The notes under the pieces are model-generated. The model saw only the letters and a list, made by a program, of their open reading frames with translations. It ran no database searches and had not been told where the DNA came from. A stretch of DNA of 64,000 nucleotides from Eledone cirrhosa (Eukaryota), in assembly GCA_964016885.1 (NCBI GenBank), contig OZ024742.1:65968001-66032000 (forward strand). The letters are read 5' to 3'. Numbering within the stretch: position 1 is the stretch's first letter; the number at the start of each line of letters is the position of its first letter. The position numbers and the translations under genes are program-made. Below, piece after piece: positions 25,788 to 44,663 of this stretch.

Positions 25788-25929
25788 TGTGTGGGTACAA
25801 AATCTCAGGACTGCTGGACAGCAGAACGTCATCAGAGAATAAAACCTCGTCAAGTAAGTTTTTCGGCCCTTACCTCTAGTGCCAATAGTTTCCGAAGAAA
25901 TAGGTCAAGGAACACTACCGCTTTATGTA

Positions 25930-25970
<41 letters not shown>

Positions 25971-25974
<4 letters not shown>

Positions 25975-26167
25975 AAAATCTTTAAACCCGACGGCAGAGC
26001 TCAAGCCGTTTCGTCGGCTATTTCTGGAGTCCAGAAATAGCCGTCGTAACGGCTTGAGCTCTGCCGTTGGGGTTAAATATTTTCCTATTACCCACTCTAC
26101 CACCCTAAGTATTGAGTACTCTGGTGCGTTATGGTCCATTTGGTTCCTTACCACACTTCCTTCGTTA
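25971..26167. mobile_element. hairpin-headed ~200-bp interspersed repeat, copy 1 (117-bp palindrome plus 80-bp tail)
   Basis: TAGGAAAA...TTTTCCTA palindrome centred on CTGGA-G-TCCAG; further copies at 40157 and 48633; all within (TA)n. Confidence 0.8.
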
Positions 26168-26179
26168 TATATATATATG

Positions 26180-26510
26180 TTGGAGTTATCCCAGTTTCCT
26201 GAGTTGCCTTCTCCTAGAAGTATGCCCTGACAAAGGCTAGAGGCGCTTCACTCCCAGTGGTTTAACCGCGCGATCGGGTATCCAGCCTGACTATTTCTAT
26301 GTTACCGATGATGTTGATCCTTTGTTCTTTTCGGGTTATAGCTACTGTCGCTCCGAGAGTGGGATTGGCTCAGTTCACAGTCTTTCCTCACTTTAAAAAA
26401 ATCTTCACGCACAGGTATTGCACGATAGAATTAATTGATAATTATCAATAATGTTATATCGTGCAATGGCCATACTCGATAACGAGAGGGCAGCCCTCAT
26501 ATATATATAT
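26180..26510 (+). mobile_element. diverged relative of the RTE-derived retroposon with an inverted 5' segment
   Basis: 26200-26260 matches the reverse of 16898-16957; 26307-26420 matches 16985-17097 forward; 3' CTCG-ATAA-CGAG stem-loop. Confidence 0.7.
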
Positions 26511-27195
26511 GTTAATTTTTAATTTTTAAAATTTTCTTATTTTACGTCTTTCATATAATTGTTCTGCATCCCCCTGCATTGAATCACCTAGGTACTATGA
26601 CATAACTTATGTATTTGCTAGCATTAGTGTACATCTGTACGCATATGTTGGTAAATATACTAATTCTCTATATTTATCTCCAAATTATTTATTTGTTGAG
26701 CAAACTTGCCAAATCCACTACTAATTCATCGTAGTGGTAGTAGGCTCTTGTCATAATACCATCCCACTCCTACTGACTAGCCTCAGTGTCACGTGATTGA
26801 TTCTTTAGAATCTGCCACTTTACCAGAGACAGTGAACTTTTTCAGTGCTATGGAATTCAGTCCCCGCTAGCTGTTCCATCCACCGAATTATTATTTTTAT
26901 ATGAGTCCCTAGTGTCCGCGCATTGCCTGGGGACTTAGCTGAGAATAGACTCCCTGATGACGTAATGAATTCTCGATGGTTACATTGCGTAACTATCTTT
27001 ATCCCATTACAGAAACTAATTAGTTGGAGTGAAAATTTTAGTAAGTTAATTTTTAATTTTTAAAATATTCTTATTTTACGTCTTTCATATAATTGTTCTG
27101 CATCCCCCTGCATTGAACCACCTAGGTACTATGACATAACTTATGTATTTGCTAGCATTAGTGTACATCTGTACGCATATGTTGGTAAATATACT

Positions 27196-27203
<8 letters not shown>
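26511..27203 (+). mobile_element. retrozyme-like or non-autonomous Penelope unit: 534-bp period, 159-bp terminal direct repeats, internal hammerhead
   Basis: 26511-26669 is repeated at 27045-27203; HHR at 26949-27030; no convincing ORF; flanked by microsatellites. Confidence 0.75.
26949..27030 (+). ncRNA. type-I hammerhead motif
   Basis: ACUCC-CUGAUGA-c-GUAAUG..CAUUAC-a-GAAA-C-UAAUUA-GUU-GGAGU. Perfect helix I, palindromic helix III; predicted cleavage after 27025. Confidence 0.85.
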
Positions 27204-27294
<91 letters not shown>

Positions 27295-27359
27295 AATTAT
27301 GTAATAACATGTATACAAAGCCTGCTTTGTGTCTCCCAATTCATATATATATCCTGCTA

Positions 27360-28205
27360 CATCTTCGGCCACTTATTCCTGTGTGGCTCGTTGGGGGGTA
27401 GAGTCCTTAAACGTTCCTTCCAGCGGGGTCTGTCAGAAGTAACCGTCTCCAACCGGTCCGGCTGGATCCCCAAGCGAGACCAGCCAAGCTCATAGATATT
27501 GTCCAATCATCTTGCTCGGGGTCTACTCGTGGGTCTCAAGCCGGTTGGTTCTGCCCGTAAAATCTGTACAATGGTTCCTTCCTGGAACCTTCCAATGACA
27601 TGGTCATATTATTGGAGCTCTCATCTCTCAATCCGGAGAAGTAGCGACTCGACCTCGTGGGAATCTGATCGCTGAGCTTCGCACATTATCGGGTAACGAT
27701 ACTCCAAAGAATCTTTGGAAGAACCCCATTTCGGCCGCTTGTATTCGTGATCGTATTCTTTCGGTCGTTAACCATGGCCATAGGTAGGGGTTAGCACGAA
27801 TACCGAAATGAAGATAGCTAGTTTCGCTTTTACGCTTACCCCCTTCTGGTTACCGAATGCTGAAGCTGGCTATTATTGCACCAATACCTGTAATCCTTGC
27901 ATTTAAATTAGACTCAGGCTTCCAGTACTTGTGAACACGGCCCCAATTTACTTGAACAGCTCTACCTGCTTCGCTGGACCTCCATTCACTTGTAGACTGC
28001 ACTGCGCAGGTATCCTGACATGAGTGTCTGAATATTCGCAGTACTGATATTTCTTTCAGCCATGCAGCTCTCGGCATCAAACCTATCGAATGCAAGTCGG
28101 AAAATGACAATCCTGTTCATGTGAATAATGAACAGGAGAGGTGCCAGTACGCACCCTTGAAAGAGGCCGACTCCCACATTGAATGTTTCGATTTAGCACC
28201 ATTTA
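27360..28205 (-). mobile_element. RTE-clade (Expander/Rex3-like) LINE 3' fragment, decayed
   Basis: VGLFQGCVLAPLLFIIHMNRI (RT), [24 protein letters not shown] (C-terminus). Confidence 0.85.
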
Positions 28206-28255
28206 TATGCTCTTCAGACTGATGATGTGACGAAAACATAGTTTTTGGTCATATC

Positions 28256-28347
28256 GCCAGTCTGAAGAGCAGATTGATAGTGGAGTCGGGTCCATAACTC
28301 CTACAGGTGACCTTGAGTCAATCCTCAGCGAAACGTGCGTAACAGGC
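28256..28347 (+). ncRNA. type-I hammerhead motif with extended helix II
   Basis: GCCAGU-CUGAAGA-GC-aGAUUGA..UCAAUC..GC-GAAA-CG-UG-C-GUA-ACAGGC; AATAAA at 28356. Confidence 0.75.
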
Positions 28348-28850
28348 TGCTACACAATAAATATCATATACATGTAAACGAAACTTCTTCGTTTTTTTCT
28401 AATATATATATATATATGTACACACATACATACAATTTGATTATCTTATTCCAAGTATTACGTGGATAGTGTTATAAAACCGGACGTACTACAGATAGAC
28501 GTAAAGTGAGATCATTTTTAACACATATAGCGCCTAATACTCTCAGAGCCATTTCAAACAAATAGATATTTATCAATTATTTTTGTTTCTGACAAGTTAC
28601 TGAAAGATTACTATCTGATGCGTTATAAATAATATATATGTATATGCAATATTACTTGTTATGGCTACTATTCTGAGAGAGAAACCCAATAAATTTGTAG
28701 AGTTCCTTTTGTCAAGGTATAGTAGATACAATTTCTCCCAATTACTCATCAGCTGCAACTGTTCATCATCTGCGAGAAATAGTATCGTGTATACCTTCTT
28801 ACACACACACACACATACACACACAAAGACACACACACAGACGCATACAT

Positions 28851-44195: not shown

Positions 44196-44660
44196 AGAAT
44201 TCACAAGAATCAAAGCTATGGTCAAAGCATTTATTCACTTACAATTGTTTCATCCAAACCTAGGCTTGAAATCTTCGGAGCCATTTTCAATGTTTGTACA
44301 CATAATTGACCTCCTTTCCAACTCAAGAGACATACAGATACATATATATATATTGATGTACAGTGGAGTGACATATATTATACTATATTATTTCTGTATA
44401 GCAATTCAAATTCAAAATCAATATAGTATGATATATATCAATATAGTATAATATATGTCAAATTCAAAATAATATAGTATAAAATATGTCACTCCACTGT
44501 ACATCAATATATATATATGTATCTGTTTGTCTCTTGAGTTGGAAAGGAGGTCAATTATGTGTACAGACATTGAAAAATGGTCCGAAGAAATAAGCCTAGG
44601 TTTGGATGAAACAATTGTAAGTGAATAAATGCTTTGAACATAGCTTTGATTCTTGTGAAT

Positions 44661-44663
<3 letters not shown>
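44196..44663. repeat. long inverted repeat (~197-bp arms) with a hammerhead motif in each arm
   Basis: 44196-44393 is the reverse complement of 44467-44663 with scattered mismatches. Confidence 0.9.
44237..44281 (-). ncRNA. minimal type-I hammerhead motif, U4C core (left arm)
   Basis: Minus strand: GCU-CCGAAGA-u-UUCAAGC cuag GUUUGGA-u-GAAA-C-AAUU-GUA-AGU, then AATAAA. Degenerate mirror copy at 44582-44623 (+). Confidence 0.65.

What the first reader, a model, noticed from the sequence alone, without database searches (positions are those of the whole stretch)
26511..27203. Retrozyme-like 534-nt unit: 1.3 copies around a well-formed hammerhead
Seen: a 159-bp direct repeat (26511-26669 and 27045-27203, few differences) with no convincing ORF between, and an HHR at 26949-27030 with perfect helix I and an extra hairpin (GAUGGUUAC/GUAACUAUC) in loop II. 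The repeat begins 20 nt after the predicted cleavage site, so the insertion starts almost where an HHR-cleaved RNA would start and runs past the next ribozyme. Established: metazoan non-LTR retrozymes are HHR-containing tandem units that yield circular RNAs. Inference: cDNA of a ~534-nt self-cleaved, possibly circular RNA copied more than once round, i.e. a candidate cephalopod retrozyme family.
Basis: partly seen in the sequence, partly recalled or inferred. Interest (0 to 1): 0.9.

Follow-up and report, generated by a model that had tools for sequence, protein, structure and literature searches.

The report
Retrozyme whose copying stutters out microsatellites
This is one copy of an abundant non-coding jumping repeat with a predicted self-cutting RNA motif, likely pasted in by a Penelope-type reverse transcriptase that appears to stutter at one of its two start points and so add new CT microsatellites.

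Summary
Observation confirmed: a 159-bp repeat 534 apart (2 differences) and a type I hammerhead at 26949-27030. It is one insertion of a large family: 9,522 exact hits to the ribozyme's 3' half, with helix covariation. Insertions look Penelope-made: variable 5' ends, (TA)n sites, and two fixed 3' ends, A and B, downstream of the ribozyme (253 of 274 arms). All 78 resolved two-armed insertions pair A with B. Site-B ends gain extra CT units only in subfamilies whose template reads CTCT (42 of 60, against 0 of 15), which points to reverse-transcriptase stutter. About 1% of copies start at the predicted cut, about tenfold over a distant control, suggesting cleavage in vivo; most read through it. 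A circular template is unproven: haplotype tests are mixed and no RNA data were examined. This copy holds one ribozyme, so it cannot release a unit. No coding partner was found in 50 GIY-YIG loci. The scan had noted sister families with the two-armed footprint in this genome; a sequence look-up showed no note on this one.

The parts
26499..26510 (.). (AT)6 left flank, likely the left part of the (TA)n target
   Evidence: 27 of 43 single-arm 5' flanks end in a TA run
26511..27199 (+). Single-armed insertion, 1.3 units, 5'-truncated, 3' end at site B
26511..27044 (+). One full 534-nt unit, 36% GC; family units cut-to-cut are mostly 520-560 nt
26549..26557 (+). Site A, internal copy: the end of 127 of 274 arms, nearly always followed by a TA run
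26612..26657 (+). Predicted long hairpin just 5' of site B (second copy 27146-27191)
26661..26673 (+). Site B, internal copy: two CT units then ATAT, unexpanded
   Evidence: 67 of 67 internal copies keep two CT
26788..26806 (+). Longest invariant stretch (19 nt, contains an E-box palindrome) across 18 subfamily representatives; candidate internal promoter element (inferred; the E-box name is recalled)
26900..26942 (+). Predicted hairpin upstream of the ribozyme; 5' ends of copies pile at its 3' base (36 ends at unit 421-450 against 16.8 expected)
26949..27030 (+). Type I hammerhead of the Penelope minimal type, with a loop-II hairpin and palindromic helix III; predicted cut after 27025 (GUU)
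27045..27199 (+). Second repeat copy: the first-copied tail, running through site A (27091) to site B (27199)
27200..27231 (+). (CT)16 where the template has (CT)2; likely added by reverse-transcriptase stutter
27232..27294 (.). (TA)n run on the primer side, target or partly added
   Evidence: TA runs are longer on the 3' side than the 5' side in single arms, medians 46 and 21 nt, p = 0.002

Best explanation
This is one insertion of a high-copy, non-coding hammerhead repeat family (a non-LTR retrozyme), likely copied in trans by a Penelope-like reverse transcriptase/GIY-YIG enzyme that primes from cut (TA)n DNA at two fixed internal RNA sites and likely stutters on a CUCU template at one of them. 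Shown in DNA: two fixed 3' ends, A and B, 66 and about 174 nt downstream of the predicted cut; variable 5' truncation; head-to-head two-armed insertions that pair A with B in all 78 resolved cases; read-through across the ribozyme; CT gain only at B and only where the template has CTCT. Inferred: an asymmetric enzyme pair extends both ends of a double-strand break, one from A and one from B. The primer's TA end pairs with AUAU next to each site, and repeated re-alignment on CUCU writes (CT)n. The ribozyme is weak and dimer-dependent, so a small share of templates are cut linear RNAs (run-off at the cut), while most are uncut multimers or re-ligated circles (I put circles at about 45% as the main template). 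Some arms later grow at DNA level into satellites. The window's copy is a single-armed B product with one ribozyme: a product, not a source of unit-length RNA.
For: Copy number: 3,646 candidates, the 40 scored 97-100% identical; 963 and 9,522 exact motif hits with 0 in the reversed control. Structure: 94.1% of cells paired, 58 double-sided changes against 20.5 in shuffles, 0 of 500 shuffles as high; slid controls 33-46% paired (37 rows picked for diversity). Ends: 135 of 148 arms and 253 of 274 arms at A or B. Two-armed insertions: 78 A+B, 0 AA, 0 BB, 19 with an unresolved end, of 97. CT gain: 42 of 60 terminal B ends above two CT in CTCT-type subfamilies against 0 of 15 in CTTT-type, p = 4.5e-7; internal sites unexpanded in 67 of 67; 0 of 64 A ends followed by CT or AG runs and 0 of 43 single-arm 5' flanks with (CT)4+; arms with no private mutation already carry up to 16 CT. 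Cut-site run-off: 13 of the first 30 of 61 hits are 5' junctions at the cut; in L182, L183 and L187/188 both arms start there, and L195 is within one base. That extrapolates to about 26 of 2,223, against about 9 of 9,584 at a control 14 nt upstream. Literature: internal initiation at two sites downstream of the hammerhead, cleavage of both strands, a predicted dimer and uncut RNA as the main substrate in vitro (PMC11167929); truncation, partial tandems, an inverted 5' copy, tail and microsatellite bias (PMC8557442 passages). The genome holds RT plus GIY-YIG frames of up to 938 aa.
Against: No coding partner shares sequence with the unit among 50 GIY-YIG loci. The two strong hits, L108 and L129, are separate nested insertions in TA runs. 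A-B spacing is about 110 nt, not the 30-40 bp Penelope tail. The neighbouring controls at -2 and +2 from the cut also gave 12 and 10 junctions of 30. Many share microhomology with the other arm, so the pile covers about 5 nt, not one base. CT length rises slightly, not significantly, with age (rho 0.16, p = 0.32; medians 5 and 8). L213 and L214, which look like duplicates of one insertion, differ in CT length (7 and 5), so DNA-level slippage acts on these tracts. In L041 and L309 the two arms carry different haplotypes, against one RNA serving both arms. In PMC11167929 initiation needed no homology to the cut DNA, unlike the TA pairing inferred here.
Confidence: 0.8

Rival explanations
1. Strict rolling-circle retrozyme: every insertion is copied round one monomeric circular RNA made by double self-cleavage and ligation.
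For: About 99% of copies read across the cut (61 of 2,223 have another base before it). Arms of more than two units occur. Private or near-private variants are shared by all rounds in L308 (2 sites, 4 rounds), L074 (3 sites), L323 and L311. Circles are shown for coral, mussel and axolotl (PMC7229834, sections 14 and 17).
Against: In L013, L031 and L307 the first-copied tail lacks variants that the inner rounds share. L031 has a two-unit periodicity. Only 11 of 169 locus-private variants at doubly covered sites are in all copies. Rounds of one arm differ by 2.0% and are no closer than the nearest other insertion. Some insertions run off at the cut, so their template was linear. No A-to-G strand bias that would mark an edited RNA: 18 against 28, p = 0.66.
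Confidence: 0.45
2. Templates are linear, mostly uncut multimeric transcripts from dimers or satellite arrays driven by an internal promoter; no circle is needed.
For: Weak ribozyme anatomy. Uncut RNA is the main substrate of the anole enzyme. Large arrays exist, C28 over 157 kb and C5 over 50 kb, with mostly intact cores, 87 of 114 and 6 of 10 units. An invariant 19-mer and a pile of 5' ends at unit 421-450 could be promoter and start site.
Against: The nearest sampled dispersed unit is 4.7% from the C28 array, whose units differ by 2.8%, so it is not the direct source of the sampled copies. In the window's narrow subfamily the first 100 of 182 hits show runs of at most 5 same-strand hits. 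Repeated 5' truncation would erode linear sources (inference). The 421-450 pile also sits at the base of a strong hairpin, where a reverse transcriptase may pause.
Confidence: 0.4
3. The (CT)n tails arise after insertion by DNA replication slippage next to a long (TA)n, or the enzyme targets existing (CT)n(TA)n sites.
For: L213 and L214, apparent duplicates, differ in CT length. Slight positive trend with age. Compound CT/TA repeats occur elsewhere in the window without this element.
Against: No CT or AG remainder on the other side of the break (0 of 43 and 0 of 64) argues against targeting. Two-unit seeds stay unexpanded internally (67 of 67). The youngest arms already hold up to 16 units and the maximum read is 34.
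Confidence: 0.2
4. The unit is only the detached pseudo-LTR of a coding Penelope-like element, or a local duplication.
For: Penelope pseudo-LTRs carry the same minimal hammerhead type (PMC4209133), and many Xenopus retrozymes are homologous to them (preprint 10.64898/2026.07.22.740005).
Against: The unit's 3' end joins its own 5' start head-to-tail in many loci and forms arrays. No arm was seen to run into coding sequence in the loci whose flanks I read. Thousands of dispersed copies exclude a local duplication.
Confidence: 0.07

Closest known systems
Metazoan non-LTR retrozymes (Cervera and de la Pena 2020, PMC7229834; passages and sections 14 and 17 read. Li, Clavereau and Pollet 2026, 10.64898/2026.07.22.740005; parts 1-3 of 5 read)
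   Same: Non-coding, low-GC, structured units with a type I hammerhead, as monomers, dimers and long arrays, in a genome rich in Penelope-like elements; Penelope mobilisation is proposed there.
   Different: The unit is longer than the 150-450 bp of the 2020 paper but inside the 51-972 bp of the preprint. The ribozyme is the minimal Penelope type with GUU. In the parts I read, neither paper describes fixed A/B ends, obligatory A+B arms, run-off at the cut or CT addition. Circular RNA was shown there and is untested here.
Penelope-like element insertions, e.g. anole Poseidon PAc (PMC11167929, parts 1-2 of 4 read; PMC8557442 and PMC3846280, passages)
   Same: Two internal start sites downstream of the hammerhead, tail at one end only, inverted 5' copy, partial tandems, AT-rich or (TA)n targets.
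   Different: No ORF. The sites are about 110 nt apart rather than 30-40. The starts abut TA-like template bases. Run-off at the cut is seen here, while that paper found no reads ending at the cut.
Non-autonomous Chlamys elements such as MRC1 (PMC8557442 passages; PMC9977147 passages)
   Same: Non-coding, Penelope-mobilised, multicopy head-to-tail, microsatellite-targeted.
   Different: Most Chlamys lack a canonical hammerhead and generally share their 3' end with a known partner; no partner was found here.
Microsatellite seeding by CR1-L3 and Rex LINEs in squamates (PMC6050309, passages)
   Same: A retroelement's 3' end is tied to a microsatellite.
   Different: There the repeat sits at the 3' tail of LINEs. 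Here a two-unit internal seed is amplified only when it serves as the start site.

Membership tests
Non-LTR retrozyme | Type I hammerhead in the unit | tested here: met
   Core invariant and helices covary over 37 rows; Rfam does not score it
Non-LTR retrozyme | Head-to-tail units with at least two ribozymes (family level) | tested here: met
   Dimers to 6-mers and arrays over 157 kb
Non-LTR retrozyme | At least two ribozymes in this copy ('active' by the 2026 preprint) | tested here: not met
   One hammerhead in 26511-27199; it is a monomer derivative
Non-LTR retrozyme | Non-coding, low GC, a few hundred bases | tested here: met
   41 aa longest ORF, 36% GC, units 504-572 nt
Non-LTR retrozyme | Self-cleavage | tested here: inconclusive
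   Indirect only: 5' junctions pile at the predicted cut; no assay
Non-LTR retrozyme | Expressed as circular RNA | not testable with these tools
   No RNA reads were examined
Penelope-mobilised non-autonomous element | 5' truncation, partial tandems, inverted 5' copy | tested here: met
   52 two-armed insertions and 43 single arms among 147 arms
Penelope-mobilised non-autonomous element | Two 3' ends (tail) downstream of the hammerhead | tested here: met
   253 of 274 arms; spacing about 110 nt, longer than the usual 30-40
Penelope-mobilised non-autonomous element | Microsatellite or AT-rich target | tested here: met
   60 of 64 A ends and 27 of 43 single-arm 5' flanks in dinucleotide or TA runs; no empty site examined
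Penelope-mobilised non-autonomous element | Terminal sequence shared with an autonomous element | tested here: inconclusive
   None in 50 loci taken from 150 scored of 10,597 GIY-YIG candidates
Autonomous Penelope-like element | RT and GIY-YIG ORF between pseudo-LTRs | tested here: not met
   No such ORF in or between the repeats

The most novel reading that the evidence does not exclude
The Penelope-type reverse transcriptase, a sister of telomerase, works as an asymmetric pair that starts at two assigned RNA sites and performs telomerase-like repeat addition at initiation. Retrozyme and Penelope insertions would then write new (CT)n(TA)n microsatellites, lengthen their own TA landing sites and seed 540-bp satellites. 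The head-to-head copies that start at GGAG would be a genomic record of hammerhead cleavage in the germ line.
Probability: 0.5. Interest if true: 0.75.

Novelty: new member of a known kind. Interest (0 to 1): 0.5.

Why it matters
How animal retrozymes are copied, and whether Penelope hammerheads cut in vivo, are open questions in the papers read (PMC7229834, PMC8557442, PMC11167929). This family supplies thousands of footprints and a natural experiment (CTCT against CTTT subfamilies) that make three points directly testable: assigned start sites for the two DNA ends, template stutter by a telomerase relative, and cleavage at a GUU site. It also offers a source for compound microsatellites and for 540-bp satellites in a repeat-rich genome. 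The family itself is one more of several similar ones that the scan has noted in this genome.

Tried and rejected
Rfam: nothing at gathering score in the window, and only chance hits in 25800-28600. Sequencing runs: no RNA holder listed; four runs of unrecorded kind from one study. No reads were laid, so expression and circularity stay open. Partner search: BLAST and a profile of 61 units against 50 GIY-YIG loci found only nested copies. One search used a mis-registered structure string and is void; one search replaces it. RNA-editing signature: an apparent T>C excess vanished with locus-private variants. Single-template test by divergence: not discriminating, because rounds and arms differ by 2.0-2.6%, about the same as the nearest other copy. 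The B-end parser mis-anchored several rows, so CT counts come. A paired-motif search for tandems did not run; multimers were taken instead. Rows dropped: L021 and L029 as duplicates; 40 junction-selected loci, the array loci and the GIY-YIG loci; 3 internal copies misfiled as terminal among 18 CTTT rows and 21 unclassified rows; 7 of 44 hammerheads cut by junctions before alignment. In one search, 9 of 30 were flagged; I read 4 as true 5' junctions, 1 as unclear and 4 as internal deletions or variants. No empty target site was examined. The host taxon was not established.

Full report
Observation. The unit has no ATG-started ORF above 41 aa and folds better than all 100 shuffles. The ribozyme is not canonical. 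It has a 3-bp helix III with a palindromic loop, an extra C after A9, an extra A before G12 and a GUU triplet; Rfam does not score it. The short helix I, long helix II, bulge after position 9 and palindromic helix III match the minimal Penelope hammerheads of PMC4209133 (parts 1-2 of 4 read), which cleave weakly and as dimers. GUU is listed as an active NUH triplet in PMC3138052 (passages); that it is slower than GUC is recalled.

Family. In the 3.0-Gb genome a search with the unique part gave 3,646 candidates; the 40 scored were 97-100% identical. A 19-nt piece of the ribozyme has 9,522 exact hits with GUU and 83 with another third base, so GUU is the family state, not decay of this copy. Subfamilies differ by up to about 20%. 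On 37 diverse hammerheads, helix II and the loop-II hairpin show double-sided changes: 94.1% of cells paired, 58 double changes against 20.5 in shuffles, slid controls 33-46% paired. That control ignores relatedness, so it is support, not a probability. The longest invariant stretch over 18 representatives is a 19-mer at 26788-26806, a candidate promoter element by inference only.

Insertion anatomy. The 3' ends are fixed and the 5' ends vary. Of 274 arms in 200 loci, 127 end at site A (unit position 47) and 126 at site B (about 155), 66 and about 174 nt downstream of the cut. Both lie next to TA-like template bases and nearly all abut dinucleotide runs. Among 97 head-to-head two-armed insertions, 78 are A+B, none AA or BB, and 19 have an unresolved end. 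This is the Penelope pattern of truncation, partial tandem, inverted 5' copy and one-sided tail (PMC8557442 and PMC3846280, passages). It matches the internal initiation at two sites downstream of the hammerhead shown for the anole enzyme, which cuts both strands and is predicted to be a dimer (PMC11167929, parts 1-2 of 4). I infer an asymmetric enzyme pair extending both ends of a break. The window's copy is a single B arm of 1.3 units with one ribozyme.

CT stutter. The template at B has two CT units, and 67 of 67 internal copies keep two. Terminal B ends carry 0 to 34; the window's has 16. Subfamilies whose template reads CTTT give a natural control: 42 of 60 CTCT-type ends have more than two CT, against 0 of 15 CTTT-type ends (3 misfiled internal rows and 21 unclassified rows left out). 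No CT or AG remainder lies on the other side of the break (0 of 43 and 0 of 64). Arms without private mutations already hold up to 16 units. Against this: the trend with age is slightly positive though not significant, and L213 and L214, which look like duplicates of one insertion, have 7 and 5, so DNA slippage acts on existing tracts. TA runs are also longer on the primer side in 41 single arms.

Does the ribozyme cut? Of 2,223 exact copies of the 20 bases after the cut, 61 have another base before them. Of the first 30, 13 are 5' junctions at the cut, and in three insertions both arms start at that base, with a fourth within one base. A control 14 nt upstream gave 4-5 true junctions in the first 30 of 62 hits, out of 9,584. 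Extrapolated, that is about 1.2% against 0.1%. Controls at -2 and +2 gave 12 and 10 of 30, many tied to the cut by microhomology or by the other arm, so the signal is a narrow pile rather than one base. The simplest reading is run-off from self-cleaved RNA in a minority of events; most copies read through.

Circle or linear multimer. Units of one insertion belong to the same subfamily but differ by 2.0% (rounds) and 2.6% (arms), no less than from the nearest other copy. L308, L074, L323 and L311 share private or near-private variants across rounds, as a circle predicts. In L013, L031 and L307 the tail lacks variants that the inner rounds share, and in L041 and L309 the arms differ by haplotype. 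There is no A-to-G strand bias. Long arrays exist: one on C28, sampled in ten 10-kb stretches over 157 kb, begins as an ordinary two-armed insertion, and one on C5 ends at site B. The C28 array is not the direct source of the sampled dispersed copies. No RNA reads were examined. The circle stays plausible and unproven.

Partner and host. The genome has 10,597 GIY-YIG candidates, 150 scored, including a 938-aa frame with RT and GIY-YIG matches. Its named relatives are bivalve proteins or contigs labelled as bivalve symbionts, which fits a mollusc but does not show a cephalopod. None of 50 such loci shares sequence with the unit apart from two nested copies.

What is known. Non-LTR retrozymes and their proposed Penelope dependence are published (PMC7229834, passages and sections 14 and 17; 10.64898/2026.07.22.740005, parts 1-3 of 5). 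Searches for a cephalopod case, for Penelope slippage or repeat addition and for two-ended priming listed no paper whose title, abstract opening or read passages describe them. A 2026 Octopus vulgaris repeat annotation has no occurrence of 'ribozyme' in its main text (PMC13282606, passages). The library is partial and no supplements were read. Earlier notes of this scan describe sister families of about 310, 422, 460-470 and 615 nt with the two-armed footprint; a sequence look-up found no note on this family, and no listed note describes CT stutter at a start site.

Verdict. A real, new member of a known kind. The A+B pairing repeats what the scan noted in sister families. The template-dependent CT addition and the run-off at the cut are the additions. 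Interest 0.5.

Noticed in passing
window 25970-26160: Short fold-back insertion of another family between TA runs (59-nt arms, 92% complementary); the right arm runs about 70 nt further than the left, like the A/B ends here.
   Followed up: partly
window 44196-44663: Fold-back insertion of another family (arms 99% and 95% complementary); one end reads AATT then (CT)11 then TA, while the read-through arm has a single CT there. A relative lies downstream of the coding element in L121.
   Followed up: partly
window 27986-28192 (- strand) and 28197-28282: A 68-aa frame with a non-LTR reverse-transcriptase-like motif (resemblance recalled) beside a 40-nt hairpin.
   Followed up: no
G000:C28:8782638 to beyond 8940000 (L262-L271): Satellite of about 540-nt units, over 157 kb, that begins as a two-armed insertion; units 2.8% apart, 87 of 114 with an intact core.
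   Followed up: partly
G000:C5:84675001-84726573 (L272-L274, L276): Second, older array of about 525-nt units ending at site B.
   Followed up: partly
L121 (G000:C1:145869800-145878500): Penelope-like element with a 938-aa open frame, a CX4CXXC linker, tandem pseudo-LTR and TA-abutting end. Its pseudo-LTR holds a hammerhead-like motif with the U3-A8 core variant of PMC4209133 (read by eye) and the same E-box palindrome as this unit.
   Followed up: partly
L141-L170: A subfamily with GUA at the cut and its own loop-II hairpin has amplified as a lineage: a natural comparison for ribozyme strength.
   Followed up: partly
unit positions 530-534 (window 27040-27048): A 4-nt repeat just after the cut toggles between one and two extra copies within single arms, giving 534- and 538-nt units side by side.
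   Followed up: partly
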